IMG/VR virus record: IMGVR_UViG_3300025892_000008
Strand: one strand, 5' to 3'
Source: a virus
Taxonomy: Duplodnaviria; Caudoviricetes
DNA length: 64,000 nucleotides
Shown: positions 47,974 to 62,799 of the stretch, piece after piece
Layout: each line of letters opens with the position of its first letter
Position numbering within the stretch: position 1 is the stretch's first letter
Made by a program: the position numbers and the translations under genes
Notes under the pieces: generated by a model
Databases searched by the model: none
Told to the model about the DNA's origin: nothing
Seen by the model: the letters and a program-made list of their open reading frames with translations, nothing else

Positions 47974-48885
47974 TTATGTTCCGATAGCATTACCAAACAA
48001 GTATACATGTACCCTTGCGGCTACATTATATCCACGTTCGAATGCCATCTTAGCAACTGCTCCGGCTGTTGCTGTTTGTTCTTCTTCTCTAGCACCTACA
48101 GGCATAACCCATACAGGATAATTTACACCTTGTGCCTTAAATTGTGAGATAGCATCTTCCATCTCATCCCACTGTTGTTGTTCGGAACCTACAACAAATT
48201 TTAATTGTCCTATAGACAACTTACTATACTGTGCAACTATCTCAGGCTTAATTGCTTTCTTTGCAGCCTCGCCTGCTACACTCCACAGTTTAGGACTTAC
48301 ACTAAAGAACAGTTCGATTTCGTTATCTGCTTCATAAGTCCAGTAATTAATAAATTCTTGTGTTAATGCTTGTGTACCATTAGTTTCAAATGTAACACTA
48401 GCAGGCATATTGCCCATACTCTTAAACTCACGCATGATACCAATGAATGCTTCTTGTCCGTGCTTCATCAACGGCTCACCACCTGTAACACAAAAGTGTT
48501 GTCTTTGTTGTGTAACAGGATGTAGAAACAAACCTTGTGGATTGCTATCTGTTTTAAGTGTATCAATAATTTGTTGTGCTAGTTCAACAGCAGTCTTTTG
48601 ACCCATTAAGTGTTTAAACTTTTTGCTCCATGTGTAACTACTATCACAGCCTTTGTCCCATACAGGCAAATCTTCTACACGTTTTACAGTTGAAGTATCA
48701 AATGTTTCAAACGGCAAATCATATGTATCAGGATTAGTAGGATCAATCTGACCAAATCCGTTACACTGTAAGTTGCATAAGAAAAACCGTATCCAAGCAG
48801 TAGGCACACCTGTATAGTGTCCTTCACCTTGAATACTGTGAAAGATTTCGCTGTAGTAATATTTCTTATCAGTTGCTATTGTCAT
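47974..48885 (-). CDS. queE: 7-carboxy-7-deazaguanine synthase QueE (radical SAM)
   Basis: SEIFHSIQGEG..TGVP..WIRF..CN..C...CDSSYTW, VTGGEPL, FETNGT, SVSPK, GQLKFVV, RVHVYLFG. Start moved to ATG 48885, downstream of the promoter. Confidence 0.9.
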   Translation of the reverse strand: MTIATDKKYYYSEIFHSIQGEGHYTGVPTAWIRFFLCNLQCNGFGQIDPTNPDTYDLPFETFDTSTVKRVEDLPVWDKGCDSSYTWSKKFKHLMGQKTAVELAQQIIDTLKTDSNPQGLFLHPVTQQRQHFCVTGGEPLMKHGQEAFIGIMREFKSMGNMPASVTFETNGTQALTQEFINYWTYEADNEIELFFSVSPKLWSVAGEAAKKAIKPEIVAQYSKLSIGQLKFVVGSEQQQWDEMEDAISQFKAQGVNYPVWVMPVGAREEEQTATAGAVAKMAFERGYNVAARVHVYLFGNAIGT

Positions 48886-49081
48886 TATGTTTATTATACG
48901 CTTTCTTATTGGATTTGTCAACCTCTTTAGTAAGTGAAAAGGAGCCATCGAAATTGTCTGTCCAAACTAAATCGTCTCCAATATCCCATCCCATTTGGTT
49001 TAGTAACTCAGTGGGAATAGGAAGAACCAAATCCTTCGATTTCGGATCTTCCTTTAATTTGATTTTTTGGGTACTAGTCAC
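48869..49081 (-). CDS. AbrB/MazE-like small DNA-binding protein
   Basis: DLVLPIPTELLNQMGWDIGDDLVW matches the swapped-hairpin pattern. GTG start at 49081 inferred from overlap with the upstream stop. Confidence 0.6.
   Translation of the reverse strand: MTSTQKIKLKEDPKSKDLVLPIPTELLNQMGWDIGDDLVWTDNFDGSFSLTKEVDKSNKKAYNKHNDNSN
48893..48921 (-). promoter_or_regulatory. Sigma70 consensus promoter for queE
   Basis: TTGACA (48921-48916), 17-nt spacer, TATAAT (48898-48893), then 7 nt to the ATG. Confidence 0.85.
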
Positions 49082-49283
49082 CAAAATGCTTGTCCAGCAT
49101 TTCGACTCTATCATGTGCAGTTGCCATTTTATCTAACTCTTTTTGGATAGTTTCGATAATATCGCTATGCTCACCAATTCCTACAACCTGTTGCATGTAT
49201 ACTTCAATATTGGCTTTATGCAGATCAATTTCTGCCTCAGCATGCTTCCTTGCTGCATTGATTAATGTTTGTTTCAATGTCAT
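49074..49283 (-). CDS. Hypothetical protein
   Basis: 69-aa helical ORF with an AAGGA SD. Confidence 0.7.
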   Translation of the reverse strand: MTLKQTLINAARKHAEAEIDLHKANIEVYMQQVVGIGEHSDIIETIQKELDKMATAHDRVEMLDKHFGD

Positions 49284-49663
49284 AACCTTTCCTTATAGTT
49301 TTGTTTTGATGGAATTACGCCGCGAACGCCGCCTCTAGGATTCTCCGTATCGCCATCACGACGGAAAATTAAGTGAACATGTGGATAAAGACAAGTTTGT
49401 CCGGCACTCTTGCCCATATTGATACCCACATTGTAACCTGTAATATTGTTATTCTCTGACTTAATGTTGTCATTACCCATAGTAAGAGCAAAATTAAAAC
49501 ACTTTAAAATGTTTTCTTCTGTATTTTGTCTAGGTACAACAAGTGTATGCCCTTCTGTAACAGGATAGATATCGTTATACACAACAAATTCACGTGTATC
49601 AATCTCGACTTGTTTCCAAGGAGCTCTACCATCTTGTTGTGCTATTTCTAAAGTGTCTGTCAT
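49280..49663 (-). CDS. HIT-family nucleotide hydrolase
   Basis: DIYPVTEGHTLVVPR, YNVGINMGKSAGQT, YPHVHLI (first His of the triad replaced by Tyr). Confidence 0.85.
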   Translation of the reverse strand: MTDTLEIAQQDGRAPWKQVEIDTREFVVYNDIYPVTEGHTLVVPRQNTEENILKCFNFALTMGNDNIKSENNNITGYNVGINMGKSAGQTCLYPHVHLIFRRDGDTENPRGGVRGVIPSKQNYKERL

Positions 49664-49980
49664 TCTTCTAGTCCTGAAACATATTCTTCAAATTCTTCTT
49701 GTCCGTACCATGTTTTAAAATCTTCTTGAAAGTCTTCGTCTTCTTGAGCATAGTGCCAAATCACATCTTGTTGATCTTGCGGAAGTCCATTAAACTCAGA
49801 ACGGAAATACCCTGCTTGTTCATAAGAAGCGTCTTCTCTTGCTTCTTCAGCACGACCCCAATCTTCTTCATCATCGCTATCGCCAATTTCATCTGCTTCT
49901 GACCAACTATCATATGCCATTGAATGTGCTTCTTCATTTATATCACTGATGATAGTGTGTGCCTCTTCTTTAGTTAACAT
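49660..49980 (-). CDS. Highly acidic small protein
   Basis: ATG 49980 with an AAGGAG SD; 35 Asp/Glu against 5 Lys/Arg in 106 aa by my count. Confidence 0.75.
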   Translation of the reverse strand: MLTKEEAHTIISDINEEAHSMAYDSWSEADEIGDSDDEEDWGRAEEAREDASYEQAGYFRSEFNGLPQDQQDVIWHYAQEDEDFQEDFKTWYGQEEFEEYVSGLEE

Positions 49981-50128
49981 TATTAATGTACTCCTTAATG
50001 TACCATTCTTTAAATTCTGGATTATCGTTAAAAATAGCAACTACTTCAGGAGCAGAAATTTGTTCAGATCTAATACATACTGCTACACTTTTCCAATCTT
50101 CTTTATCGTAAATTACTTTTATTGTCAT
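49970..50128 (-). CDS. Small hypothetical protein (52 aa, absent from the ORF track)
   Basis: MTIKVIYDKEDWKSVAVCIRSEQISAPEVVAIFNDNPEFKEWYIKEYINNVN; TAATG coupling with the upstream gene; fills the gap exactly. Confidence 0.65.
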   Translation of the reverse strand: MTIKVIYDKEDWKSVAVCIRSEQISAPEVVAIFNDNPEFKEWYIKEYINNVN

Positions 50129-50358
50129 TAAAATCCTCTACCTTTGTTAATTTGAAATATTCTAGGACCAGGTGTTGTAAATTCAAACCCCATCTTATTA
50201 CCAACATAAACTCTACCGTTATATTCCATATGTATTTTATTTGTTGCTAGAAAGATATCTAGAAACTCTTTTTCTTTAAATCTATCAACTTCTGCCTCTG
50301 CTACTTTGTCATTATCTGTGCAAGTAACTGTGCATACATTATCATGTCCTGTTGGCAT
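50128..50358 (-). CDS. Hypothetical protein
   Basis: ATG 50358 coupled to the PRTase stop. Confidence 0.65.
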   Translation of the reverse strand: MPTGHDNVCTVTCTDNDKVAEAEVDRFKEKEFLDIFLATNKIHMEYNGRVYVGNKMGFEFTTPGPRIFQINKGRGF

Positions 50359-50915
50359 TAATACTCTCCTACATTTTCCCAAGGATAAACTAACCAAACA
50401 TCTTCCTCAGATTTATTAACTTCATCACAATAGTAATTAACTAAACCAAATTCGCTTGATAAGTTTTCTGTTAATACTGCAAAGCGAACATTATCTCCCC
50501 ATGCTTGATCCCATATAGGCGATTGAGGTAAACAACTGGATTTCCAATCATCTCTAATCCAGTTAAATGTTGCACCAGTATCATTTATATCATCTACAAT
50601 AAGAATGTTTTTGCAATTAGTATCGTGTTTAAACTGCCCCATCTCAGGAGCATAGTCTCCACTATCATCGTAACCATATGCATCTTCGGCCATCCAACAG
50701 TTGCTTTCACTTTCACTAGTATCATCACGTAGACTTACTTTAATCGCTTCGCAACGTATGCCAGTCATGTTACTAATAATAGTAGCAGGAACATTACCAC
50801 CACGTGTAATACCTACAATGTAATCAGGCTTCCAGTTGTCAGCATACATTTTGTTTACAATATTAACGCACATTTTTTCTACGTCAGCCCAACTATAATA
50901 TTTCTTTTTAATCAT
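50358..50915 (-). CDS. Purine phosphoribosyltransferase (Gpt/Hpt-like)
   Basis: IVGITRGG..PA and the PRPP-binding loop ILIVDDINDTGAT; C-terminal WLVYPWE. Confidence 0.85.
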   Translation of the reverse strand: MIKKKYYSWADVEKMCVNIVNKMYADNWKPDYIVGITRGGNVPATIISNMTGIRCEAIKVSLRDDTSESESNCWMAEDAYGYDDSGDYAPEMGQFKHDTNCKNILIVDDINDTGATFNWIRDDWKSSCLPQSPIWDQAWGDNVRFAVLTENLSSEFGLVNYYCDEVNKSEEDVWLVYPWENVGEY

Positions 50916-51387
50916 TGCGTCCTTCCAAATATTTTTCATTATGTACCCAACGGTATCCTAATGTTTTTACAAAAGGTAAAAAGCCCCATTCCTTTTGTTT
51001 CTTGCCCATATAGAACAAACTCCAACAAGGAATCTCTTTACCGTCTTTATCTTCCTTAAGTTTTAGGTAATGCAGATCATCTGATGATCTAAACCTAAAA
51101 TGCCCAGGCCCACGCCATCTTGCTGTGGCTCCTACTACGTTACCTTCTTGACTATAACAAGGAATGTATTCATAGTATCCGCCTTTTAAAATAAGTGTTG
51201 CATACGACCACGGATGATCGTGTAGTACTGACTCATCACTTACCATAACTTTGTGTAGTGTTATGTTAAAAGGAAAGTTCTTTCGTTCCTTTAAAAACAA
51301 ATAATAACGATCAAGATAAGGTATTTTACCATCTCTATCGTATATAGTTCTTTTTCTACCTAACTTATCAAGCAGTTTCAACAACAT
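50908..51387 (-). CDS. Cupin-like hypothetical protein
   Basis: LHDHPWSYATLILKGGYYE ... DLHYL metal-binding cupin-type pattern. Confidence 0.55.
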   Translation of the reverse strand: MLLKLLDKLGRKRTIYDRDGKIPYLDRYYLFLKERKNFPFNITLHKVMVSDESVLHDHPWSYATLILKGGYYEYIPCYSQEGNVVGATARWRGPGHFRFRSSDDLHYLKLKEDKDGKEIPCWSLFYMGKKQKEWGFLPFVKTLGYRWVHNEKYLEGRND

Positions 51388-51775
51388 CAAAAACCTCTTC
51401 CTTTAAATAACGTTTTAACTCACCGTCAATGGGTTGTACGTTATAGTTATCTTTGAAAAATATCTCATAACTATCAGAGCCATATTTTCCAATTCCGTAT
51501 AACATTGTAGCATCATTTCCGTCCCAAGTCAAGTAATCTTTTGACATTCTACGTAGCCGGTGTTCACGTACATTAACCATTCCTAATGGTTTAATAATCA
51601 TTTTAATTGTATCTGGCGCAGTATTAATCAAATGTACTGGTGTAGGACAAATACCAAATAACAAAGGTAATACTCTTTTTACTTGTTTACGGTTTGTTTG
51701 ATTAAGACAGATAACACCTACCATGTGTTGCCAAGAGCCATCAATTTGCTGTTGCACCATAAGTTCGTCTTTCAT
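51368..51775 (-). CDS. HhH-GPD DNA glycosylase, MBD4-like
   Basis: WQHMVGVICLNQT, LGMVNVR..RL..MS..YL, LYGIGKYGSDSYEIF. Confidence 0.75.
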   Translation of the reverse strand: MKDELMVQQQIDGSWQHMVGVICLNQTNRKQVKRVLPLLFGICPTPVHLINTAPDTIKMIIKPLGMVNVREHRLRRMSKDYLTWDGNDATMLYGIGKYGSDSYEIFFKDNYNVQPIDGELKRYLKEEVFDVVETA

Positions 51776-51981
51776 CCTAGTGTGACCCAATTACTATGTT
51801 TCGGCTTGAACAAAGAATAAACCTGTTTTACTCTTTTGTTATATTCTTCTTCATTCACCGAAATATTATTTAGGTGTTGTCTCCAAATTCTTTTCATATC
51901 GTCTGAAAGTTTTGGGTTTGCTAGAATTAATTTTAAACTTGCTCTACGCTGAGACTGTTTGATTTCCGAATAAGGTCCCAT
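51772..51981 (-). CDS. Hypothetical protein
   Basis: 69-aa ORF whose stop overlaps the next start. Confidence 0.55.
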   Translation of the reverse strand: MGPYSEIKQSQRRASLKLILANPKLSDDMKRIWRQHLNNISVNEEEYNKRVKQVYSLFKPKHSNWVTLG

Positions 51982-52177
51982 AATTTATTCCTTTCATTGG
52001 ACAATTCTTTCTACTCATTCTTACAATGTGTGGTGTAAGATTATGTAACTTAGTCATATCAATTAGTTTTATACCACGTAAGTTAAACATGAGTGCTTCA
52101 TTAGGTGTAAGAATTCTAATATCGTTCTGAGTTTTTTGCGGTTGAAGTGCATAAACTCTTTCTTCATTAAGATTCAT
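51944..52177 (-). CDS. Hypothetical protein
   Basis: Start coupled to the upstream stop, but a 38-nt overlap with the downstream ORF lowers confidence. Confidence 0.45.
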   Translation of the reverse strand: MNLNEERVYALQPQKTQNDIRILTPNEALMFNLRGIKLIDMTKLHNLTPHIVRMSRKNCPMKGINYGTLFGNQTVSA

Positions 52178-52425
52178 TATACTATTTCCTCAACTATTCC
52201 TAACACTTCTGCTAAAAATAATACTGCTCCACCAAGCATCATTAAAAATCCTGCATCAGCAATAAAAATATCAGTGTACTCGTTTGCTGTCCATAAAATA
52301 TATCCTGCAACAGCCATTAAGCCTGATGCTATAAATCTAAATATACTTTTTACAATACTAACTGCAAAGTGTCCTAAGCCGGGATCTTTAGCCGCAGGAA
52401 CAAATACTCTTTCTGGAATAGGCAT
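52177..52425 (-). CDS. Small membrane protein
   Basis: Two hydrophobic segments; GGAGG SD. Confidence 0.7.
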   Translation of the reverse strand: MPIPERVFVPAAKDPGLGHFAVSIVKSIFRFIASGLMAVAGYILWTANEYTDIFIADAGFLMMLGGAVLFLAEVLGIVEEIV

Positions 52426-52607
52426 TATTTTACCTCCACAAGTGGATCACTTAAAAAACTATCATGGTAGTCACCACTTTTATGAAACTGCCTGATTGAA
52501 GTCTCCTTAATCAGGTGCCCATTCTTTATAGTATACGTAACATATTCTGCTTTGATCATACCTTCCGTGCTTCTGTTGATATGTTCAGTCATAGGTCCAT
52601 CTTTCAT
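52425..52607 (-). CDS. Hypothetical protein
   Basis: 60 aa, AGGAG SD. Confidence 0.65.
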   Translation of the reverse strand: MKDGPMTEHINRSTEGMIKAEYVTYTIKNGHLIKETSIRQFHKSGDYHDSFLSDPLVEVK

Positions 52608-52617
52608 TTATATCTCC

Positions 52618-53307
52618 TTATTGATTACAAGCATATGATTGTTGAAGTTTAATGTTATCCATAAACTCTTTCTTAGTAGCCGCATCGTCTTTGAATGCAC
52701 CTTTAAGAACAGTTGTTTGTGTAAGACTACTGTGTGCCTTAACACCCCTATTCTCAACACAACCGTGTGTTGCTTGTATATACACACCTAAGTGTTCTGC
52801 ACCTGTTGCTTTTTGTATTTCACGGGTAATATCATTTGCAAGTTCTTCTTGCAATGTACCACGTTCAGCACACCATTGTGCAATACGTGTATACTTAGAC
52901 AAGCCAATTAGTTTGTCTGCGGCAATTATACCAATGTATGCTACGCCTCTTACAATCTGATGATGATGTGAACACATACTTGTTAGTTCTGAACGTACTA
53001 CTAGCATACCTTCATAACGTGAAGCACTGTCATTTGGAAATGCTGTTGCACTAGGAATAGGATCATAACGTCCTGCCATTAGTTCATTGATATACATCTT
53101 TGCAAGACGTTTACCAGTTCCCATACTGTTAGGGTCATTATGCCTGTCAATTACAAGTGCATCTAGTACACCTTCAAACTTCTCGGCGGCTTCGTTGATA
53201 AGTTGTTCTTTTTCGCCTTCAAAAATAAAGTCACTGATATTGTCACCTGCCCAATATCTATTTTCTGTATCTTGTAAGCGTTTTGCTATTTCTTCGTATT
53301 TCTTCAA
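52618..53307 (-). CDS. folE: GTP cyclohydrolase I
   Basis: TGKRLAKMY, SMCSHHH, IGLSKYTRIAQW, LQEEL, ATHGCVENRGV. TTG start with a GGAG SD. Confidence 0.92.
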   Translation of the reverse strand: MKKYEEIAKRLQDTENRYWAGDNISDFIFEGEKEQLINEAAEKFEGVLDALVIDRHNDPNSMGTGKRLAKMYINELMAGRYDPIPSATAFPNDSASRYEGMLVVRSELTSMCSHHHQIVRGVAYIGIIAADKLIGLSKYTRIAQWCAERGTLQEELANDITREIQKATGAEHLGVYIQATHGCVENRGVKAHSSLTQTTVLKGAFKDDAATKKEFMDNIKLQQSYACNQ

Positions 53308-53346
53308 TTTAATCTCCGATGTTAACGCAGTGGATTGCGTATAGTA

Positions 53347-54387
53347 TTAATGTAACACGTCTAGTAAACCTTTGCAACTAAAATAATCTCCATTCAGTTT
53401 GTTTACTTGTTTATTTAGGTCTGGAAGATAGTTTTTATAATTTTCCATGTATTCTGTAATAAGATTCATTACTTTGGGTTTGTTCTTTTTATATGAATCT
53501 AATGAATCTGTCCATTCACTTGGATATTTAAACTTAGGTAATGCCATTTCAGAATAACTTAACCTATCTGGAACCATTGGAATTGCACCAACAATTGCAC
53601 CTTCATACCAACTTATACCTAGTGTTTCTTGTAAGTTGGCACTAAACACAATTTTTGCTTCTCCTAGTAAGTTGTGATATTCGTTCTTTGAAAGATCTCG
53701 TTCTTGACAAACCACAAAGTTATATTGTGGTAATGCTTCTTTCAAGTCTTGGAATATTGATAGTTGTTTTTCAGGAGCAATCCTGTGTGGGAATAATATA
53801 GTATCCTTTTTAGGCATTCCTTTATACATTGTAAGTGTATCTTCCATGTATTCAAAAGGCCAACCTGTTCTTACTATTTTTTGTTTATCTAAATCAGGAA
53901 AGGCTTTAAAGAACATAAGAATATGGAATTCACTTGCAAAGAAATTATGATCAAAACATTCATACATACTTCTTTCAGCATTTCTTACCCAAGGCTTATC
54001 GCCAATTATCCTACCAAGAAAATCAGCAGGATCGTAACTGCCAGCATGCCATAACCCACCAATTCTGATCTTAACATTAAGTAGCTCAGCCATGTATTTA
54101 AGTTGTATAACAGACGGGTTCCAAGCATCTGTATATAGGAAATAATCCCCATCCTTTACTTCTCCTTTGCAAAATGCATCAGCAATCTGCATCAATTGAT
54201 TTGATTTGTAAACATTAGTCCCACCAAAGTTGAGGAACGCACCAGGTGTTGTTGCCTGTGGCGTATCCCCTCCATTGACTACTCGCACTTTATGGCCGTG
54301 AGCTTCTAGCAGTTTAGGAAACTTTGTTTTCCACTGTTTAGTGTATCGTGTTTCTACTGCTTCAAGATCAACTAGCCAAATATTCAT
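53347..54387 (-). CDS. GT-B glycosyltransferase (GT4-like) inside the deazaguanine cluster
   Basis: LFPHRIAPEK, EX7E motif ETLGISWYE, GAIPMVPDRLSYSE. Confidence 0.75.
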   Translation of the reverse strand: MNIWLVDLEAVETRYTKQWKTKFPKLLEAHGHKVRVVNGGDTPQATTPGAFLNFGGTNVYKSNQLMQIADAFCKGEVKDGDYFLYTDAWNPSVIQLKYMAELLNVKIRIGGLWHAGSYDPADFLGRIIGDKPWVRNAERSMYECFDHNFFASEFHILMFFKAFPDLDKQKIVRTGWPFEYMEDTLTMYKGMPKKDTILFPHRIAPEKQLSIFQDLKEALPQYNFVVCQERDLSKNEYHNLLGEAKIVFSANLQETLGISWYEGAIVGAIPMVPDRLSYSEMALPKFKYPSEWTDSLDSYKKNKPKVMNLITEYMENYKNYLPDLNKQVNKLNGDYFSCKGLLDVLH

Positions 54388-54590
54388 CTGCGCTTACTCC
54401 TTTTATCTTTAAATTTCCGATTACCTTTACTAAATGCTCTCCATACATAACTAGAGTTATTATAGAGATCCTTTTCATGAAAAGGATAAAAGTTACCACG
54501 GTTGTCACTGTTAAAGCGACAAAAATTTTTGAATTGTTCAAGATCGTTAAAAACCTTATCGTAGGCTCTACGATTGAATTGAATCGCCAT
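54384..54590 (-). CDS. Hypothetical protein
   Basis: 68 aa with a GAGG SD; basic C-terminus. Confidence 0.65.
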   Translation of the reverse strand: MAIQFNRRAYDKVFNDLEQFKNFCRFNSDNRGNFYPFHEKDLYNNSSYVWRAFSKGNRKFKDKRSKRR

Positions 54591-54602
54591 TTTAATAATC
54601 CT

Positions 54603-55043
54603 CTATCTAGCATACTCAATGTGGGCACCGTTTTCTCCATCTTCACTTACGTCAATATGGACTTCACGGCCTGGGTGTTTAGCAATAATTTGTTCATATA
54701 AATCATCACTCATCATTTCACAACTTTTATAATCTAATTCAATTGTCTTCTCCTCATACAGTTTCTCAAGCCAACGCTTGAATTGGATGAATTCAATATC
54801 TCTGTCGTTGTGTGTAACAGTGATACCTACCTTAAAATGAAATATGTGTCTATGGGGATAACCCAAAAAACTAACATCATATTCATCTCCTGTTGCAAGA
54901 CTAGGATCATCTAGTGCCGCAGGATACTTATGGATACCTTCTTTAGTAAAGGTTACCCAAATCATTCGTTTTGCTGTAGACATAATGCGTCTATGATTGT
55001 CTTCTGCTGTTGCTTCTTTTATCATTGTTTCCATTGTACTCAT
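54603..55043 (-). CDS. QueD-like T-fold protein with LxxxHRHxF motif (DpdL-like candidate)
   Basis: FLGYPHRHIFHF, HNDRDIEFIQFK, KSCEMMSDDL, VSEDGENGA. Lacks the CxxxHGH motif of canonical QueD. True start may be 55034 or 55025. Confidence 0.75.
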   Translation of the reverse strand: MSTMETMIKEATAEDNHRRIMSTAKRMIWVTFTKEGIHKYPAALDDPSLATGDEYDVSFLGYPHRHIFHFKVGITVTHNDRDIEFIQFKRWLEKLYEEKTIELDYKSCEMMSDDLYEQIIAKHPGREVHIDVSEDGENGAHIEYAR

Positions 55044-55072
55044 AGTATACTACCTTTTTGTTCTGTTGTCAA
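55044..55072 (-). promoter_or_regulatory. Sigma70 promoter for the QueD-like/GT/folE unit
   Basis: TTGACA (55072-55067), 17-nt spacer, TATACT (55049-55044). Confidence 0.8.
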
Positions 55073-55073
55073 G

Positions 55074-55577
55074 TTAGTCTTTAATATCATCATCGCCATA
55101 TTTGCTCCAATCCGTAAACTTATTGCGTTGTAATAGTGGATGAATATTGTGTACCCATACACCCGGATTAGAATGATCAAAGTCTGCATCATCAATCTTA
55201 ATACAAGCATTGTAGTTAAGTTGATTTACGTATGGCAGTTTAACACTAATCATACTAATAAAGTTATGATTCTCATTAAACCCACTTTCAAGTATCCATT
55301 CATGATACTTTACATCATAGTCTAATGTAACTAAAAATTTCTTATTAAGTAGGCCTTGTACAAGATCTTCCCAACTTTCTTTTGGAACAAAACTGTGATT
55401 AGCACCTAAGTAAATATGGTCAACTGTGTGTTCTTTTGCTTTTGCAAGAACATCTTCTAATGGTTGACATCCTGTTACAAACAGTGTATGCATTTCATAA
55501 GCAGGAGTTTTCTCTACTTCATATCCTGTAAAGTAAGTAACATCTTCTTTTACACCATCTGCATATTCTCGTTTCAT
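55074..55577 (-). CDS. Hypothetical protein between the dpdA-like and queD-like genes
   Basis: 167 aa; ATGA overlap with the upstream ORF. Confidence 0.75.
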   Translation of the reverse strand: MKREYADGVKEDVTYFTGYEVEKTPAYEMHTLFVTGCQPLEDVLAKAKEHTVDHIYLGANHSFVPKESWEDLVQGLLNKKFLVTLDYDVKYHEWILESGFNENHNFISMISVKLPYVNQLNYNACIKIDDADFDHSNPGVWVHNIHPLLQRNKFTDWSKYGDDDIKD

Positions 55578-55753
55578 TCAGCGTTTACCTTTTCTAACCT
55601 ATCAATTTGGTCTTTCATTTTTAATCGACTACGTTTCATTTCAGATATTTCTTCATCTGCAAACCTACCGGTTTTTTCCATAGTATCAATTTTTTTATTT
55701 AGGAAATTGTGTGTTTCTTTTAAAACTTTTAGTCTCTGAGTGTAGTCACCCAT
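55574..55753 (-). CDS. Small coiled-coil protein, DUF465/YdcH-like (59 aa, absent from the ORF track)
   Basis: MGDYTQRLKVLKETHNFLNKKIDTMEKTGRFADEEISEMKRSRLKMKDQIDRLEKVNAE; LxxxHxxLxxxI...KxxRLxxKDxI pattern. Confidence 0.7.
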   Translation of the reverse strand: MGDYTQRLKVLKETHNFLNKKIDTMEKTGRFADEEISEMKRSRLKMKDQIDRLEKVNAE

Positions 55754-55754
55754 T

Positions 55755-57302
55755 TTACGCCTCCTGTAGTTGTTGCTCTAGTTTATCTAGTTCACCATCT
55801 TCTCTATCATCTGCCCAAGGTGTTTTTTCTTCACCTTCTTCGTCTACTTCTACAAACATTCTGTTAAACTCATTGGTAACACCACCACGTAGTCTTGCAC
55901 CTTCTAAGTTTTTAAGGAAACTGTCACCTTCTTTAATCATAGCAAACGCTGCTTCTTTAGTAGGCTGTTCGAACAGTTCTTCGACAAATTTATCAAAGTA
56001 TAAAATGTTACGCGGCACCCAATCAGAATATTCATCACTCTTATCTGCTTCTTTTACTTTTCTCCAACTTCTCCAGTCTGGACGATCCTTTGCCAATTCA
56101 ATATCTGTTAAGTTGTTAGCACGTTGTACCGCAACAATATGTTGATAAACGTTATGTGCCATCATTAGTGCATAACCAAAACTATCCCAAGATGTTTTAC
56201 CTTCTTTACCAATCTTGTTTAACATACCTGGAGCATAATGACAAATGTCAGCAATGCTTAGTCGTCTACCAATTTCACTTTCGAAAGGAAAAGGAATATC
56301 GTGCCTCTTGGCAAGTGCTTTGTTATCAGGAGCCTTGTCCATTATAACTGACCATCTCTTACTTGTATGCTGGCTGTTAGTGTACACTAGTCCGTGTGCT
56401 GTAGCAATAAAAGGACTTGCACAATCAAAACTAACTGTAAAGTTCTCATTAATGTGTTTTCTAACCTGTCGTTGAATTGAAGTAAGATAACATGACCAAT
56501 CAAGTTGTGCAGTACCTAAGAAGTGCATCCAGTCCTTGCCTTCTAGCATACCATCAAATTTCATAGTCATTATACGTCTTAGTGTAATAGGCATTTTGCA
56601 CATATTAGCGCCACCCATTGCCCAGCCTTCACAAGCCTTGTCTTTCCATATAGCAGGATCGGAGAATTCTTTAACACCTTCGTACCACCTTTCAGCAGTA
56701 TCCCAGTCTGAACCCTGTAATACATTTAAGAACTTAGTTGCACCAAGTCTGCGCTCTAACCAATATTTGTTATTAAATCTTGTTTTTTCTAAACAATCTT
56801 CAAAACTCTTTAGTCCTGTTTTAGGCGAATGAATATGATCACATGCCCAAGTAGGAACGTCAAGTAGCATACTCCAGTCTGCTGTAAGTTCGAGCCAATT
56901 AAGAATATCTTCTCTAACCTTATTAGCAGCAGGACCTTCAAAGTTTAGCCAATCAAATTTAAGAACACCTTTACCAACTTGATAACCACCTGAGTCACCA
57001 AGTATCATAGTGTTGCCACGATCACGTGTTTGCACCATACTGTCTTGATCCATTGTTTTATCAAGATTTAATTGTGCGTGTCCTGCGGAATACAATCCAT
57101 ATTTGTATGTAAAGTATCCTTCTTCTTCATTTAAAAAGTTCATACCTTCGATGCCGCGATCAAAGCCTTGCGGAATACGGTCAGTTGGAACGAACTCTTG
57201 CTTACGTTGTTTAGCAATATAAGTGCTGAAGAAAGAACTAATAGCAGGCAAATACACTGCGTAGTCTTTCTGTAATGGTGTTAAGTTGACTGGTTTTTTC
57301 AT
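55755..57302 (-). CDS. dpdA: TGT-superfamily guanine transglycosylase, DpdA-like (probably DNA-acting)
   Basis: TGT active-site motifs in order: DSGGYQ, MLLDVP, NVLQG, WAMGG, HFLG, SFDC. No CxCxxC zinc site of tRNA TGT. Context of folE, queE and a queD-like gene, next to clamp and polymerase. Confidence 0.75.
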   Translation of the reverse strand: MKKPVNLTPLQKDYAVYLPAISSFFSTYIAKQRKQEFVPTDRIPQGFDRGIEGMNFLNEEEGYFTYKYGLYSAGHAQLNLDKTMDQDSMVQTRDRGNTMILGDSGGYQVGKGVLKFDWLNFEGPAANKVREDILNWLELTADWSMLLDVPTWACDHIHSPKTGLKSFEDCLEKTRFNNKYWLERRLGATKFLNVLQGSDWDTAERWYEGVKEFSDPAIWKDKACEGWAMGGANMCKMPITLRRIMTMKFDGMLEGKDWMHFLGTAQLDWSCYLTSIQRQVRKHINENFTVSFDCASPFIATAHGLVYTNSQHTSKRWSVIMDKAPDNKALAKRHDIPFPFESEIGRRLSIADICHYAPGMLNKIGKEGKTSWDSFGYALMMAHNVYQHIVAVQRANNLTDIELAKDRPDWRSWRKVKEADKSDEYSDWVPRNILYFDKFVEELFEQPTKEAAFAMIKEGDSFLKNLEGARLRGGVTNEFNRMFVEVDEEGEEKTPWADDREDGELDKLEQQLQEA

Positions 57303-57307
57303 AATGT

Positions 57308-57313
57308 TATTTA
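57308..57313 (-). promoter_or_regulatory. TAAATA promoter core, 5 nt before the dpdA-like ATG
   Basis: TAAATA-ACATT-ATG overlapping the clamp stop codon; no SD. Confidence 0.55.
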
Positions 57314-58048
57314 GGCCGCCTGTGCTGGAATGATATATTTGTAATTTGCTAATCCACTATCTAGTGTAATTTGAATAGCACCTTCGTTTGAAATACTCAT
57401 CTTAGTATTATTAACATCAGCAATTTTAAGGATAGCAAGAATACTAGCCACTGGCCAAGTCCAACCTTTATCTAATGTACCTTCAACATTTTGTGCGAAT
57501 ACAAATTCACCACCATGTGTACTTGCATCACCAAAGATAAACTTCAAGTTATTATCTTCAGTTTTTGCTAAGAACGTTGGATGTTCAGGATTAGCGCCTG
57601 CTTGGAAACTAAACCTTTGTACTGCTGGCAAAGTTGGAGTTACCTCAACATTCCAGTTAACACCACGAAACTTAACAGTTTTCATTTTTTCGTTAATAAT
57701 TTCTTGATTCATAAAACGATAGTCGTTTTTAAAATCACCATCAGCATTTTCAAAATGAATACCTACTGGAATAGTAGCACCATTTCTTTCAGCATTTGTA
57801 ATAGTAATTTTTGCATCCTTTTGATATTCAGTACCATCAATTAAGTATTTCAACTTATTAAGTTGAGGCATACCAAATGTACCAATCATATCTGGATACG
57901 GGTTATGTGTGTCTGCTTCCATAATAACTGATCTGTCATCAGCCATTGAAAACATTCCTGTCTTATCTTCTTCGCCAGATACCTTAACAGTTGTTAGGAA
58001 ACCTAAGTTCTGTGTGTGGCTGACGATATCTTGTAAAATGTCTTTCAT
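57311..58048 (-). CDS. DNA sliding clamp (gp45/PCNA-like)
   Basis: 245 aa, two-domain size, ends AIQITLDSGLANYKYIIPA as PCNA-fold clamps do; adjacent to PolB. Confidence 0.7.
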   Translation of the reverse strand: MKDILQDIVSHTQNLGFLTTVKVSGEEDKTGMFSMADDRSVIMEADTHNPYPDMIGTFGMPQLNKLKYLIDGTEYQKDAKITITNAERNGATIPVGIHFENADGDFKNDYRFMNQEIINEKMKTVKFRGVNWNVEVTPTLPAVQRFSFQAGANPEHPTFLAKTEDNNLKFIFGDASTHGGEFVFAQNVEGTLDKGWTWPVASILAILKIADVNNTKMSISNEGAIQITLDSGLANYKYIIPAQAA

Positions 58049-58106: not shown

Positions 58107-60770
58107 TTACTCAAAATCAAATAAACTGTTAAAGTTATTATCATTACGTGTTTGACTTATGTCCCATTCCAAAACGCCAATTAAGTTTTTAAGTTTTTCA
58201 TCGATAACTGTGTTTTCCATAGTAGCATCATCGAATGGTAACTCTTTGAACCAATCCGGAAGTCTTAGTTCGTCAACCGGATATGCTACACTGGTGTAAG
58301 CCATTGGATTATCTTTAACCTTACATACAATAACTTTTGCACCATCTGTTATGTTTACTGAGTACTTGTCGCCGTTCATACGTTTAAGTGTATTCCAATT
58401 GATACTTGCTCTTACGTGTCCAGGCATATTCACCTTACCTGCTTTCTTTTCCTTTGCTCCATACTCTGTAATCTTATTTGCACGCTTAGGAGAACCTTTC
58501 TCCCAACCTGGACGTGACTTAAACTCTGTTCTAAATTCAGTAATGTAGTCTAGTACATCTTCTTTGTCTTTACCTGCTAGTACCATTTCTAATACATTAC
58601 TCAAAAAGTCTTGAATAACAACAGGAGTATCAGAACGTTTCAAGTCTAAGCCCATTGCTTTAATCTTGCCTGCCTTGCCTTCTGTATCTGTTCTAAATCC
58701 TTCAATGTCATAGTATAACACTGCATAACGTTTCTTTGTAATAAACAGACCTTTACTTGCAACAATCTCTCTAGCAGCCGCAATAACTTCGGAACGTTTT
58801 TTAGGACAATGAAATGCTTGGCTCATAAACTTAGGAAATGTTGCATTAGCATTTTCGCCGATTGTATCATATAGTTCTATAACGCTGTCTTTTGTCCACG
58901 GAATACTACCTGCTTCAATATCTTTTTTCAGTGTGCTATACGCACTGAAGTATGTAGAGTCAGTGTCACCATAAACAATTGCTTTGCCTGTATGATCATA
59001 TTCGCCTGTTACTATCTCATTGATCTTAGCAGCCATATGTTTTGTGATACTTCTTCCTGTAAGTGTAACACTTTGACCGATCCTATTATCGAAAAACCTA
59101 CAACCAGGATTAAGAATAGCGCCATACAAACTGTTAAGTAGAATTTTCTTAACCAACTGTCGCTTTGCCCAGTATTCTTCTTCAATTTTGTTTCCTGCAT
59201 TTTGACTTTCTTTCTGTTTAGCCTGCATTTCTTTACGTTCTTTGTACCAACGTGCAAGTAGTCCAGGAATAATACCTTCTTTTTCGTATGTAAAGATTGT
59301 ACCATTAGCACTTAGCATCCAAGGTTGATTGCTTTCGTAGATTAAATCATATATCTGTGCGGCACTAAGTTTGTCATTGTCGCCATTTTCCCAGTCGACA
59401 GTAATCTCTCTGCTAATCTCTTTGTCCATTACAGAACTATATTCAACACTACCAAACATACCTTCCCATGCACTTGCAAATGATTTGCCCTTTGCCATCT
59501 GTCCATCGATATGTGCTTTTGTTCCTTCTTGACGTAGTTGTCCGACTACAGTCTCAGGACCCATATTCAATGCTCTAATAACAGACGGATACAGTGAATT
59601 CAAGTCAACACTGCCAATCCATTCATGAATACCTTTTTTAGGATAAGCAACATAAGCACCTGCCGCAGGCTCACTGCCTGGCTCACGTTTTACTCTGTTC
59701 GGAACAATCATTCCACGTCTGTGTGCTTCGTTGATAATACCTTGTTCTGTAACTGCAACAGCACCCATTGTTGTTTGTATAAGAACTGTGTTTTCATGTG
59801 CAATAGTATTTGCAAGATCGATAAACTTTAGTTTCTTGTCTAGTTTGTCAAGTAGTGCAGTATCTTGTCTATTGTATTCGATGAATGTTCTAAAGTCGTT
59901 GTTGTATAGTGCATCAAGACTACCTTCATAAACAGTTTTCTTTTCACCTACTTCTAGTTCACCAATAGCATCTAGTCTGTATGTATGGCGTTCTTCATAG
60001 TTGTACTTACGATATAGTTCTAAACTATCTACGTGTACACGACCAATTAGATCATATGTTTGTGATTCCTTACCAAACTTTTCATATATTCTTTTCTTAG
60101 GCTTTTGATCCCACAAGCACAAGCGTCTAGTATCATCTGCGCTTAATACTTTAATGATACGGTTAACAGTGTAAGGCATATCATAACCTTCACTGTTCCA
60201 ACCACTTAGTACATCAGCATCTTGAATAAGATCTAAAAAAGCATCAAGCATATCTGCTTCATTGTCATACAGTATTGTATTTGGAATACCTTCAATTGCT
60301 TTTTGTGCTTCTGCCATTGAAAGTGTCTTAGGAGGAATAGCCAAACAAATAAGTTCATCTAGCCACTGTAAATGCACAGCAATTGATGTAATAGGCATAA
60401 ACGCATCTTCTGGACTTGCGTACCCACGCTCAGGATCAAAGTCAACCTCGATATCCCAAAACGCTACATTTAGTTTAGGAGCATCAACGTTTAAATAGTT
60501 GTCTTCTAAACAGCGATAAATTGGATTTATATCGCTTTCATATAATTTATGATTAGAATGAATTGCAAGTTCCTTGCGCAATTCCTTAATGTTTTTTGCA
60601 GTTACACGCTGTAAAGGATCACCGTAAATAGATTGATGTTTGCCTCTTGGGTCTTTATAATAAAATACGTGTCTTGGGGAATATTCTGTAAAATGTCTTT
60701 TATTGTTTTTTCTTTCTACTACTCGAATAGTATCTTCACTTCGATCATAGAATGCATCTACGTAACTCAT
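58107..60770 (-). CDS. Family B DNA polymerase with 3'-5' exonuclease (gp43-like)
   Basis: ExoI WDIEVD, ExoII GWNSEGYDMPY, ExoIII YNRQD, motif A DLNSLYPS, motif B KILLNSLYG, motif C YGDTDS. C-terminal clamp-type motif NSLFDF. ATG 60770 follows an AGGAG SD. Confidence 0.95.
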   Translation of the reverse strand: MSYVDAFYDRSEDTIRVVERKNNKRHFTEYSPRHVFYYKDPRGKHQSIYGDPLQRVTAKNIKELRKELAIHSNHKLYESDINPIYRCLEDNYLNVDAPKLNVAFWDIEVDFDPERGYASPEDAFMPITSIAVHLQWLDELICLAIPPKTLSMAEAQKAIEGIPNTILYDNEADMLDAFLDLIQDADVLSGWNSEGYDMPYTVNRIIKVLSADDTRRLCLWDQKPKKRIYEKFGKESQTYDLIGRVHVDSLELYRKYNYEERHTYRLDAIGELEVGEKKTVYEGSLDALYNNDFRTFIEYNRQDTALLDKLDKKLKFIDLANTIAHENTVLIQTTMGAVAVTEQGIINEAHRRGMIVPNRVKREPGSEPAAGAYVAYPKKGIHEWIGSVDLNSLYPSVIRALNMGPETVVGQLRQEGTKAHIDGQMAKGKSFASAWEGMFGSVEYSSVMDKEISREITVDWENGDNDKLSAAQIYDLIYESNQPWMLSANGTIFTYEKEGIIPGLLARWYKERKEMQAKQKESQNAGNKIEEEYWAKRQLVKKILLNSLYGAILNPGCRFFDNRIGQSVTLTGRSITKHMAAKINEIVTGEYDHTGKAIVYGDTDSTYFSAYSTLKKDIEAGSIPWTKDSVIELYDTIGENANATFPKFMSQAFHCPKKRSEVIAAAREIVASKGLFITKKRYAVLYYDIEGFRTDTEGKAGKIKAMGLDLKRSDTPVVIQDFLSNVLEMVLAGKDKEDVLDYITEFRTEFKSRPGWEKGSPKRANKITEYGAKEKKAGKVNMPGHVRASINWNTLKRMNGDKYSVNITDGAKVIVCKVKDNPMAYTSVAYPVDELRLPDWFKELPFDDATMENTVIDEKLKNLIGVLEWDISQTRNDNNFNSLFDFE

Positions 60771-60775
60771 TTTTT

Positions 60776-60829
60776 CTCCTATATGCAATTTCAGGCTTGC
60801 AAATACCAATGTGTCGCTTAATGGCCGAC
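60776..60829 (-). promoter_or_regulatory. Structured 5' leader of the polymerase gene (candidate translational operator)
   Basis: Hairpin UGCAA-GCCUGAAA-UUGCA (60784-60801) just before the SD; second hairpin GUCG...CGAC (60813-60829). Confidence 0.5.
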
Positions 60830-62265: not shown

Positions 62266-62799
62266 TTACTTGTAGATTTTCCAACCATTTTTATCAACTA
62301 AATTCAAAATAAATATTTTTTCTTTGTTGTAGTCGTGTTGTCCTTTGTTTCTGGTTTCGTAGAATGTTCTAGTTTCTTTAAAATCAAAACCAAAAATATT
62401 AACTTGTTTATTATTCGTTTCACTTAGATAATACAAAACCTGTAATCCTGTAGATGGTGGCGCATTAAGATTATTTTCTAACCATTGTGATTGAAACAAA
62501 GGTAAGATTATTCTTTTTGCTTTAAATTTTGCTTTTTTTATTTTATATTCCAATTCCTTTTTAGTAGGAGTGAATATTAAAGTATGGAATTTTGGTGTTT
62601 CAGAATTATATTTTTCAAAAGTGTTTACTTCACTTGAAGCCAAAAAGTCCCAACGACTTCCTTGAGATTCTTCATTAATTATACCTGCTCGATTAAATCT
62701 TACAGTAGGAAGACTATCAATAATGTGTCCGTTAGTTTTTGAAAATATACTTTCTGCGTTGCCAATTACATTTAAAGCCTGATTTAAATCTGTTAACAT
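62266..62799 (-). CDS. GT29 sialyltransferase-like protein
   Basis: Sialylmotif L-like VIGNAESI...GHIIDS..TVRFN, S-like PSTGLQVLYYL...VNIFGFDF, VS-like HDYNKE. Confidence 0.7.
   Translation of the reverse strand: MLTDLNQALNVIGNAESIFSKTNGHIIDSLPTVRFNRAGIINEESQGSRWDFLASSEVNTFEKYNSETPKFHTLIFTPTKKELEYKIKKAKFKAKRIILPLFQSQWLENNLNAPPSTGLQVLYYLSETNNKQVNIFGFDFKETRTFYETRNKGQHDYNKEKIFILNLVDKNGWKIYK

What the first reader, a model, noticed from the sequence alone, without database searches (positions are those of the whole stretch)
47974..57302. 7-deazaguanine DNA-modification system with a DpdL-type QueD-like protein and no QueC or QueF in view
Seen: queE, folE, a TGT-fold protein without the tRNA-TGT zinc site, and a T-fold protein with LGYPHRHIF instead of QueD's CxxxHGH, all within 9.4 kb next to clamp and PolB. 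Established: FolE, QueD and QueE make CDG, and DpdA enzymes insert 7-deazaguanines into phage DNA. From memory, LxxxHRHxF was the signature reported for DpdL, the predicted CDG decarboxylase; this needs checking against the paper. Inference: this phage replaces G with dDG or dCDG rather than preQ0/G+, and a canonical QueD must be elsewhere in the genome or supplied by the host.
Basis: partly seen in the sequence, partly recalled or inferred. Interest (0 to 1): 0.8.

Follow-up and report, generated by a model that had tools for sequence, protein, structure and literature searches.

The report
Deazaguanine DNA-modification module with sugar transferase
A giant marine phage carries, beside its DNA polymerase, genes to make a 7-deazaguanine base and swap it for guanine in its own DNA, together with a conserved sugar-adding enzyme, which suggests that the final base may be a kind not yet described.

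Summary
On the minus strand, 47974-57302 encodes a QueE-like radical SAM enzyme, FolE, a T-fold protein with the exact DpdL signature LxxxHRHxF, and a 515-aa protein that no Pfam, NCBIfam or PHROG model recognises. That protein folds confidently (pLDDT 92) into a tRNA-guanine transglycosylase barrel. Its three catalytic aspartates are invariant, and the structural zinc site is absent.

No QueD, QueC or QueF turned up in the window ORFs I scanned. An 82%-related 278-kb contig carries a QueD gene 63 kb from its transglycosylase-like gene. All 11 complete DpdL phage genomes have a QueD-family match, often distant.

A GT4-type glycosyltransferase (53347-54387) sits in the module. In six cultured lineages checked by whole genome (PA5oct, Phosso, ACP17, X1, BCSR5, BUCT-ZZ01) it lies beside or within about 3 kb of DpdL. 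All six carry a long transglycosylase-like gene. The phiST type, proven to carry dDG, has a short DpdA3, a kinase-like gene and no such transferase.

I read this as a new variant of the known DpdL system. The product could be dDG or a sugar-bearing derivative. First-reader notes from this scan on the same genome had already flagged the glycosyltransferase and a distant queD.

The parts
47974..48948 (-). QueE-like 7-carboxy-7-deazaguanine synthase (radical SAM). The Cys triad is C58-x3-C62-x38-C101, with an insertion of about 36 aa between the second and third Cys.
   Evidence: PHROG 2076 at 6.5e-53. NCBIfam QueE models hit only weakly, over the N-terminus. 36% identical to the PA5oct gene annotated as CDG synthase. 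Invariant E42, R54, C58, C62, C101, T155-G-G and P159 in alignment A5.
49280..49663 (-). HIT-family nucleotide hydrolase/transferase, an accessory gene.
   Evidence: Pfam HIT 9.6e-8. Conserved in the 82% and 86% marine relatives L086 and L048.
50358..50939 (-). 6-oxopurine (xanthine/guanine-type) phosphoribosyltransferase.
   Evidence: Pfam Pribosyltran 4.4e-11 and NCBIfam XPRT 3.5e-12. PDB HGPRT and purine PRTases at about 2e-8. A PRTase also lies inside the clusters of PA5oct and BUCT-ZZ01.
50908..51390 (-). Cupin-like protein. Variable, not core.
   Evidence: PHROG 4786 'cysteine dioxygenase' 1.2e-29. Present in L048, not detected in L086.
51368..51790 (-). Short HhH-GPD (DNA glycosylase superfamily) protein. 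Variable, not core.
   Evidence: Pfam HhH-GPD 2.2e-6. Present in L048, not detected in L086.
52618..53307 (-). FolE, GTP cyclohydrolase I.
   Evidence: Pfam 4.3e-37, 127.7 bits. NCBIfam FolE 5.3e-41.
53347..54387 (-). GT-B, GT4-like glycosyltransferase, conserved partner of DpdL and the long TGT-like gene.
   Evidence: Atlas score 1.00 to viral 'glycosyl transferase family 1' clusters. The family profile A4 hits GT4 structures WlaC/PglH at 1.4e-6 and PimA at 4e-3. D87, D122, R202, K207 and E262 are invariant. Homologues lie next to or within about 3 kb of DpdL in PA5oct, Phosso, ACP17, X1, BCSR5 and BUCT-ZZ01.
54603..55043 (-). DpdL-family T-fold protein (QueD paralogue, proposed CDG decarboxylase).
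   Evidence: LGYPHRHIF matches LxxxHRHxF. Homologous to ACP17 DpdL (52%) and phiST DpdL (34%). H64, E109 and E134 are shared with phage QueD in alignment A3.
55074..55577 (-). 167-aa conserved protein of unknown function with an alpha/beta core.
   Evidence: 34% identical to ACP17 gp122, 1e-17, at the equivalent position. About 1900 metagenomic homologues. AF2 pLDDT 72 and no PDB match.
55755..57302 (-). Zinc-less TGT-fold protein, candidate DNA guanine transglycosylase (DpdA-like).
   Evidence: AF2 pLDDT 92, pTM 0.91. Foldseek and VIA-align match TGT at E 1e-8 and Z 18. hhalign to E. coli TGT gives 92.8%, aligning DSGGYQ, LDVPT, VLQG, WAMGG and FDCASPF. D103, D148 and D293 are invariant in 74, 73 and 74 of 74 members, and there is no Zn motif.
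57311..58048 (-). Sliding-clamp-like protein (context).
   Evidence: PHROG 12062. 33% identical to a Phosso gene annotated as sliding clamp and 37% to PA5oct EST35_0314.
58107..60809 (-). Family B DNA polymerase (context).
   Evidence: Pfam DNA_pol_B 8.1e-34 and exonuclease domain 1.3e-16.

Best explanation
This is a DpdL-class 7-deazaguanine DNA-modification module in the replication region of a marine jumbo phage of about 340-350 kb. I infer the steps from the known pathway. FolE opens GTP. A QueD encoded elsewhere in the genome makes CPH4. The QueE-like radical SAM enzyme makes 7-carboxy-7-deazaguanine (CDG). DpdL converts CDG, by the decarboxylation to 7-deazaguanine that Cui et al. propose. 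The 515-aa zinc-less TGT-fold enzyme then exchanges guanine in phage DNA for that base by the two-aspartate transglycosylase mechanism (D293 as nucleophile, D103 as acid/base). The GT4 glycosyltransferase most likely acts in the same pathway and adds a sugar, so the final base may be a glycosylated 7-deazaguanine rather than plain dDG. The 6-oxopurine PRTase probably returns the released guanine to GMP and GTP, which feeds FolE again.

What is shown: the gene identities, the fold, the conserved catalytic residues, and the cross-phage linkage. What is inferred: every chemical step, DNA as the substrate, and the sugar.
For: - Gene identities: FolE, QueE; DpdL motif and homology to the two DpdLs named in PMC10516641.
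- TGT fold with invariant D103, D148 and D293.
- Synteny. The module runs PolB, clamp, TGT-like, DpdL, GT, FolE, QueE, RNase H, as in PA5oct. [quoted passage not shown]
- QueD. It is present on the same 278-kb contig as an 82% homologue of the TGT-like gene. PF01242 matches in 11 of 11 complete DpdL phage genomes.
- QueC. No match in 9 of 11 complete genomes. None found in the window ORFs scanned.
- GT4 linkage. Found in 6 of 11 complete DpdL phage genomes, beside or within about 3 kb of DpdL, and adjacent to the TGT-like gene in five of them (in Phosso the TGT-like gene lies elsewhere). It accompanies three different long TGT-like subtypes and is never seen with the short phiST-type DpdA3.
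- The GT keeps the GT4 donor-site residues R, K and E.
- A PRTase lies inside the cluster here, in PA5oct and in BUCT-ZZ01.
Against: - No biochemical activity is known for any DpdL or any DpdA3-like enzyme. Cui et al. detected no dDG when they expressed dpdL plus dpdA of phiST or ACP17 in E. coli.
- The TGT-like protein fails both the Pfam TGT and Pfam DpdA models and lacks the zinc site that tRNA TGTs and bacterial DpdA keep.
- 7-deazaguanine has no obvious hydroxyl to accept a sugar, so the GT's substrate is unknown.
- QueD was found in a relative, not in this genome, which is not held.
- An unchecked note reports a QueC-like gene elsewhere in this genome. If real, it would open preQ0 or ADG routes.
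Confidence: 0.7

Rival explanations
1. The system is the same, but the product is plain dDG (or dCDG) as in phiST. The GT4 enzyme works on something else, such as a virion protein, a host glycan or a cofactor, and is linked for regulatory or historical reasons.
For: dDG is the only product proven for a DpdL phage (phiST). 7-deazaguanine offers no classical acceptor group. The window also has a separate set of sugar-metabolism genes, including a UDP-glucose/GDP-mannose dehydrogenase at 42479-43663.
Against: The GT stays beside or within about 3 kb of DpdL in six cultured lineages with different gene orders. In Phosso it stays beside DpdL even though the TGT-like gene has moved about 170 kb away. 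It is absent from the three lineages with the short DpdA3.
Confidence: 0.35
2. A pre-replicative, nucleotide-level route. The PRTase couples CDG or 7-deazaguanine to PRPP, as TubE does in tubercidin biosynthesis (recalled from my own knowledge, not checked here). Kinases and ribonucleotide reductase then make the dNTP, and the adjacent PolB incorporates it. The TGT-like enzyme would only mop up remaining G or have another role.
For: A 6-oxopurine PRTase and a HIT protein lie inside the cluster. A PRTase is adjacent to QueE in PA5oct and BUCT-ZZ01. Nucleoside ADG was seen in cells infected by phage CP220, according to Cui et al.. The cluster is embedded among replisome genes.
Against: Only 3 of 11 complete DpdL genomes have a PRTase, while a TGT-like gene was identified in 8 of 11. 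The catalytic aspartates of the TGT-like protein are invariant across 74 diverse members, which argues for a central and not a marginal role. No dGTP-removing enzyme was identified in the window.
Confidence: 0.12
3. The pathway does not target DNA. It modifies tRNA or RNA, or makes a free 7-deazapurine glycoside or nucleoside metabolite.
For: The fold matches tRNA enzymes as well as it could match DNA enzymes. GT, PRTase and HIT genes are typical of nucleoside natural-product clusters.
Against: There is no tRNA gene in the window. The genes sit between PolB/clamp and RNase H. PA5oct, with the same module, has restriction-resistant DNA. Every phage examined so far with such genes carries the base in its DNA.
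Confidence: 0.06

Closest known systems
DpdL/DpdA3 system of Cellulophaga phage phiST (Cui et al. 2023, NAR 51:9214, PMC10516641), with complete replacement of dG by dDG
   Same: Both have FolE, QueE, a QueD gene and no QueC. Both have a QueD paralogue with LxxxHRHxF. Both have a TGT-related protein invisible to ordinary profiles and lacking the zinc site.
   Different: phiST has a short (259 aa) DpdA3, which is only marginally similar (hhalign 76.6% over 84 columns). It also has a P-loop kinase-like gene and a MazG gene, and no glycosyltransferase. D479 and Ahp1 share that layout. The window has a 515-aa TGT-like protein, a GT4 enzyme, a 167-aa partner and a PRTase.
Acidovorax phage ACP17 dpdL cluster (named in Cui et al. 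2023; product never determined)
   Same: The same four-gene core: small protein (gp122, 34%), TGT-like (gp123, hhalign 96.9%, 1.3e-10), GT4 (gp124, 38%) and DpdL (gp125, 52%). FolE, QueD and QueE are also present.
   Different: The ACP17 TGT-like protein is a separate subfamily of about 424 aa, shared with X1 and BUCT-ZZ01. QueD is inside the ACP17 cluster. ACP17 has no PRTase.
Pseudomonas jumbo phage PA5oct (Wroclawvirus) locus EST35_0311-0325
   Same: Syntenic replication module with a P0001-type TGT-like gene (41%), GT4 (47%), DpdL (58%), a PRTase-like gene and QueE (36%). QueD lies about 55 kb away and there is no QueC. Its DNA resists G-site restriction enzymes (PMC12191111).
   Different: A soil and clinical Pseudomonas host. 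No P5 homologue was detected. The DpdL motif reads HFH instead of HRH. In GenBank the TGT-like, GT and DpdL genes are all annotated as hypothetical.
Bacterial DpdA (Salmonella Montevideo, PMC10164549) and tRNA-guanine transglycosylases
   Same: TIM-barrel TGT fold. Three active-site aspartates, including the nucleophile and the general acid/base.
   Different: Those enzymes keep a CxCxxCx22H zinc site, insert preQ0 or preQ1, and match Pfam PF23859 or PF01702. The window protein does none of these as far as sequence shows.

Membership tests
DpdL (Cui et al. 2023) | Homology to phiST CGPG_00067 and to ACP17 DpdL | tested here: met
   blastp gives 34% and 2.6e-17 to phiST, and 52% and 3e-41 to ACP17. 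tblastn finds 28 phage records.
DpdL (Cui et al. 2023) | LxxxHRHxF in place of QueD's CxxxHGH | tested here: met
   L60-GYP-H64-R-H66-I-F68. The motif wording was checked in the paper.
DpdL (Cui et al. 2023) | Metal and substrate residues shared with QueD (His and Glu) | tested here: inconclusive
   H64, E109 and E134 are invariant across 9 DpdL and 4 phage QueD sequences. The full His triad was not mapped on a structure.
DpdL (Cui et al. 2023) | Context: FolE, QueD, QueE and a DpdA present, QueC absent | tested here: inconclusive
   FolE, QueE and the TGT-like gene are in the window. QueD was found only in an 82% relative's contig. No QueC was found in the window ORFs scanned or in the 96 kb walked in the relative. 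An unchecked note reports a QueC-like gene elsewhere in this genome.
DpdL (Cui et al. 2023) | CDG decarboxylase activity | not testable with these tools
   The activity has never been shown, even for phiST.
TGT/DpdA superfamily | TGT-type TIM-barrel fold | tested here: met
   AF2 pLDDT 92. Foldseek E 1e-8 with probability 1.0. VIA-align Z 17-18 over about 300 residues.
TGT/DpdA superfamily | Three invariant active-site aspartates | tested here: met
   D103, D148 and D293 align to the DSGGFQ, FDEC and FDC motifs of E. coli TGT. They are conserved in 74, 73 and 74 of 74 members.
TGT/DpdA superfamily | Structural zinc site CxCxxC...H | tested here: not met
   P0001 has one Cys in the region. Of 74 family members, 15 have none there.
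TGT/DpdA superfamily | Match to Pfam PF01702 (TGT) or PF23859 (DpdA) | tested here: not met
   No Pfam family at E up to 10. Neither model scores over its cut-off in any of 11 DpdL phage genomes.
DpdA3 (phiST CGPG_00065 type) | Sequence relationship to phiST DpdA3 | tested here: inconclusive
   hhalign gives 76.6% over 84 columns. blastp finds nothing. The protein is closer to ACP17 gp123 (96.9%). The paper's supplementary table that assigns subfamilies is not held.
DpdA (functional sense) | Acts on DNA and inserts a 7-deazaguanine | not testable with these tools
   This is inferred from the replisome context and from PA5oct's restriction resistance.
QueE (CDG synthase) | Radical SAM Cys triad, QGEG substrate motif and GGE SAM motif | tested here: met
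   C58, C62, C101, E42 and T155-G-G-E-P are invariant with phage QueE proteins. PHROG 6.5e-53. NCBIfam scores are far below the equivalog cut-offs.
GT4 (GT-B retaining glycosyltransferases) | C-terminal nucleotide-sugar domain with conserved Arg/Lys and Glu | tested here: met
   Profile A4 hits WlaC/PglH at 1.4e-6 and PimA at 4e-3. R202, K207 and E262 are invariant. The BUCT-ZZ01 homologue hits Pfam Glyco_trans_1_4 and Glycos_transf_1. P0004 alone has no Pfam hit.

The most novel reading that the evidence does not exclude
DpdL systems come in two kinds. The kind found here pairs DpdL with a long, zinc-less (or in BCSR5 zinc-bearing) transglycosylase and one or two GT4 glycosyltransferases. It occurs in abundant marine jumbo phages, PA5oct-like Pseudomonas phages, Phosso, ACP17, Xanthomonas X1/BUDD, Burkholderia BCSR5 and cyanophage BUCT-ZZ01. 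Under this reading it makes a sugar-bearing 7-deazaguanine in DNA. That base has not been described in any paper I could search.
Probability: 0.35. Interest if true: 0.85.

Novelty: new variant of a known kind. Interest (0 to 1): 0.66.

Why it matters
7-deazaguanine bases shield phage DNA from restriction enzymes and CRISPR nucleases, and they are also targets of modification-dependent defences. The transglycosylase-like protein here belongs to a very large family: more than 7,700 clusters at 90% identity and 877 at 50%. No public profile library searched here recognises it. Deazaguanine DNA may therefore be much commoner in marine viromes than annotation suggests.

The conserved glycosyltransferase may explain why DpdL plus DpdA alone gave no product in E. 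coli. It also points to a possible new hypermodified base. Cultured phages (PA5oct, ACP17, X1, BUCT-ZZ01) carry the same module. PA5oct DNA is already known to resist G-site restriction enzymes, but its base is unidentified. One mass-spectrometry run could therefore settle the chemistry.

Tried and rejected
- Megablast of the 9.3-kb region against phage records found no match.
- Pfam, NCBIfam and PHROG gave nothing for the TGT-like, GT and 167-aa proteins.
- phmmer and a family HMM of the TGT-like protein against PDB sequences found nothing. Only structure comparison and hhalign showed the relationship.
- The window's own genome is not held. PF01242 and PF06508 searches of nine IMG/VR fragments of relatives found nothing, because those fragments do not reach far enough. 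A locus from the look-up of encoding contigs could not be used as a genome handle.
- One look-up failed because I gave wrong minus-strand coordinates.
- I walked the 278-kb contig from its position 148,920 to 244,728. I found QueD but no QueC.
- The 167-aa protein gave a mediocre AF2 model (pLDDT 72), no significant Foldseek match and no informative Atlas neighbour.
- Complex prediction of the TGT-like protein with GT4 gave no verdict (score 0.00). This counts neither for nor against binding.
- I considered tree placement among DpdA1-4 and dropped it. Identity is about 15% and the paper's subfamily table is not held.
- The N-terminal part of Bakedbeans gp176, which is fused or mis-called upstream of its DpdL, showed no similarity to other cluster proteins.

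Full report
**What is in the window.** The window is phage DNA with about 35% G+C. Structural genes lie on the plus strand up to about 43.6 kb, and a replication and nucleotide-metabolism block lies on the minus strand after that.

In the flagged stretch the minus strand encodes, in transcription order:
- family B DNA polymerase, 58107-60809
- a clamp-like protein, 57311-58048
- a 515-aa protein, 55755-57302
- a 167-aa protein, 55074-55577
- a 146-aa T-fold protein, 54603-55043
- a 346-aa protein, 53347-54387
- FolE, 52618-53307
- several small ORFs
- a short HhH-GPD protein, a cupin-like protein, a purine PRTase at 50358-50939 and a HIT protein at 49280-49663
- a QueE-like radical SAM enzyme, 47974-48948
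- a 5'-3' exonuclease/RNase H gene further on

These assignments rest.

**Checking the four claimed genes.**

FolE is unambiguous: Pfam gives 127.7 bits against a cut-off of 27.

The QueE-like protein scores far below NCBIfam's equivalog cut-offs. It does match the phage QueE-like PHROG over its full length at 6.5e-53. In an alignment with the QueE proteins of phiST, ACP17, PA5oct, X1, BCSR5 and BUCT-ZZ01 it keeps the QGEG motif, three invariant cysteines and the TGGEP motif. An insertion of about 36 residues separates the second and third cysteine, and PA5oct, X1 and BUCT-ZZ01 share it.

The T-fold protein reads LGYPHRHIF. Cui et al. [quoted passage not shown] The protein is also a plain homologue of the two DpdLs named in that paper: ACP17 at 52% and 3e-41, and phiST at 34% and 2.6e-17.

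**The 515-aa protein.** It has no match in Pfam even at E = 10, and none in NCBIfam, PHROGs or PDB sequences.

It belongs to a very large family. There are more than 7,700 clusters at 90% identity and 877 clusters at 50% identity, and wherever a source names them they are 'hypothetical protein'.

With an alignment of 74 diverse members, AlphaFold2 gives pLDDT 92 and pTM 0.91. Foldseek's first 50 PDB hits are all tRNA-guanine transglycosylases, with E about 1e-8 and probability 1.0. VIA-align gives Z 17-18 over about 300 residues to bacterial, human and archaeal TGTs alike.

Profile comparison with E. coli TGT (92.8%, E 4e-7) lines up the motifs as follows:

| P0001 | E. coli TGT |
|---|---|
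| DSGGYQ | DSGGFQ |
| LDVPT | FDECT |
| VLQG | IIQG |
| WAMGG | YAVGG |
| FDCASPF | FDCVMPT |

D103, D148 and D293 are the counterparts of the acid/base, base-recognition and nucleophile aspartates. They are present in 74, 73 and 74 of the 74 members.

The CxCxxC...H zinc site is missing. Fifteen members have no cysteine at all in that region. This does not mark the protein as DNA-acting, because bacterial DpdA keeps the site (PMC10164549).

Among the sequences I could compare, the nearest is ACP17 gp123 (hhalign 96.9%, 1.3e-10). phiST DpdA3 is only marginally similar (76.6% over 84 columns). I could not learn which subfamily name Cui et al. gave the ACP17 enzyme, because the supplementary table is not held.

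**Relatives and context.** The module is syntenic with the replication region of Pseudomonas jumbo phage PA5oct. That region runs PolB, clamp-like, TGT-like (41%), 353-aa protein (47%), DpdL (58%), PRTase-like, QueE (36%), RNase H (51%).

[quoted passage not shown] The authors conclude that G is modified. They give no mass spectrometry and name no transglycosylase (PMC12191111).

Close relatives of the window abound in aquatic metagenomes. One ENA contig encodes identical proteins for the cluster genes it covers, from PolB through the start of FolE. CheckV estimates, and a 343-kb contig carrying an 84% homologue of the 167-aa protein, point to a genome of about 340-350 kb.

**QueD, QueC and QueF.** I found none in the window. 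The evidence is Pfam scans of most ORFs and tblastn with four phage QueD queries. The window's genome is not held.

To look further, I walked a 278-kb ENA contig whose TGT-like protein is 82% identical. A 167-aa PTPS/QueD gene lies 63 kb upstream of it. That gene has the same CxxxHGY variant as the QueD proteins of ACP17, phiST and PA5oct.

No QueC appeared in the 96 kb walked.

In 11 complete genomes of cultured DpdL phages, PF01242 matches in all 11, over the cut-off in 10. The match is often far from DpdL: about 55 kb in PA5oct, about 220 kb in Phosso and about 98 kb in X1. PF06508 (QueC) is absent from 9 of the 11.

First-reader notes from this scan place a queD about 38 kb and a QueC-like gene about 52 kb beyond the window. 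I could not check either in this genome.

The 346-aa protein is a GT-B, GT4-like glycosyltransferase.
- Atlas neighbours are viral 'glycosyl transferase family 1' clusters.
- A profile of the family detects the GT4 structures WlaC/PglH at 1.4e-6 and PimA at 4e-3. R202, K207 and E262 are invariant.
- The BUCT-ZZ01 homologue hits the Pfam GT1 models.

Its homologues lie beside or within about 3 kb of DpdL in PA5oct-like phages, Phosso, ACP17, Xanthomonas X1 and BUDD, Burkholderia BCSR5 and cyanophage BUCT-ZZ01. BUCT-ZZ01 has two, flanking its TGT-like gene and DpdL. In Phosso the pair DpdL-GT stays together, with overlapping reading frames, even though the TGT-like gene sits about 170 kb away.

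The GT accompanies three different long TGT-like subtypes:
- the P0001 type, in PA5oct and Phosso
- the ACP17 type, in ACP17, X1 and BUCT-ZZ01
- a zinc-bearing type, in BCSR5

It is absent from phiST, D479 and Ahp1. Those phages pair DpdL with a short phiST-type DpdA3 followed or preceded by a kinase-like gene. RHph_I1_18 and Bakedbeans also lack the GT, and I did not identify their transglycosylase.

None of the 11 genomes has a Pfam-recognisable TGT or DpdA.

The 167-aa protein has a homologue at the matching position in ACP17 (34%). It remains of unknown fold.

**Reading.** I put this at about 0.7.

The only DpdL phages with measured DNA are phiST and its relatives phi19:2 and phi13:1 (100% dDG). 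They belong to the GT-less layout. [quoted passage not shown]

The tight, repeated linkage of a donor-competent GT4 enzyme suggests one of two things. Either the GT is one of those missing enzymes, or it decorates the base further. I give about 0.35-0.4 to a sugar-bearing final base and about the same to plain dDG.

The acceptor chemistry is unexplained. That is the main weakness of the sugar idea.

The PRTase is of the xanthine/guanine type. It also recurs inside the clusters of PA5oct and BUCT-ZZ01. Salvage of the excised guanine back to GTP is the simplest role. A nucleotide-level route to a 7-deaza-dGTP is the alternative, and I give it about 0.12.

The HhH-GPD and cupin-like genes are not conserved in the 82% relative, so I treat them as accessory.

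**Novelty.** The kind of system is published, and ACP17 is named in that paper. Three things are not in any paper I could search:
- The long zinc-less TGT-fold family, very abundant in marine viral sequence and unannotated, is the likely transglycosylase of PA5oct-like and marine jumbo phages.
- DpdL systems split into a GT-linked layout and a kinase-linked layout.
- The product of the GT-linked layout may therefore differ from dDG.

Other first-reader notes in this scan, on this same genome, had already flagged the GT and the PRTase/HIT pair. I reached the GT independently. Because cultured phages carry the module, the question can be tested directly.

Noticed in passing
window 6026-20962 (+): A single ORF of 4978 aa in the structural block. 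It lies between a gp25-like baseplate wedge gene (2029-2466) and a tail-collar-domain protein (21642-23783).
   Followed up: no
window 36685-39223 (+) and 42479-43663 (+): Two adjacent radical SAM proteins, one with a SPASM domain. About 3 kb downstream of the pair lies a UDP-glucose/GDP-mannose dehydrogenase family gene, which is about 10 kb from the GT4 gene. It is a possible source of an unusual nucleotide sugar.
   Followed up: partly
window 47974-48948 (-), residues 58-101: The QueE-like protein has its radical SAM cysteines spaced CX3CX38C. The insertion of about 36 aa is shared with PA5oct, X1 and BUCT-ZZ01 and is absent from ACP17, BCSR5 and phiST.
   Followed up: partly
window 62266-62799 (-): A 177-aa protein with a weak Pfam match to GT29 sialyltransferase (3.2e-5, at the cut-off).
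   Followed up: no
L107:5263-6414 (Vibrio phage Bakedbeans gp176): The DpdL domain is annotated as the C-terminal third of a 383-aa protein. The N-terminal 245 residues resemble nothing else in the clusters. This is either a fusion or an over-long gene call.
   Followed up: partly
L109:6692-8094, L108:6426-7876, L002:9323-10583: In D479, Ahp1 and phiST the short DpdA3-type gene is adjacent to a dNMP-kinase-like or P-loop gene. This hints at a nucleotide-level step in the GT-less layout.
   Followed up: partly
L112:10001-20342 (ENA contig k141_1721354, an 82% relative): A run of at least seven radical SAM/SPASM genes begins about 10 kb beyond the QueD gene.
   Followed up: no
L105:2843-3376 (Xanthomonas phage X1): A PAPS-reductase-family PP-loop protein lies directly after FolE in the X1 DpdL cluster. 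It could stand in for QueC-type chemistry.
   Followed up: no
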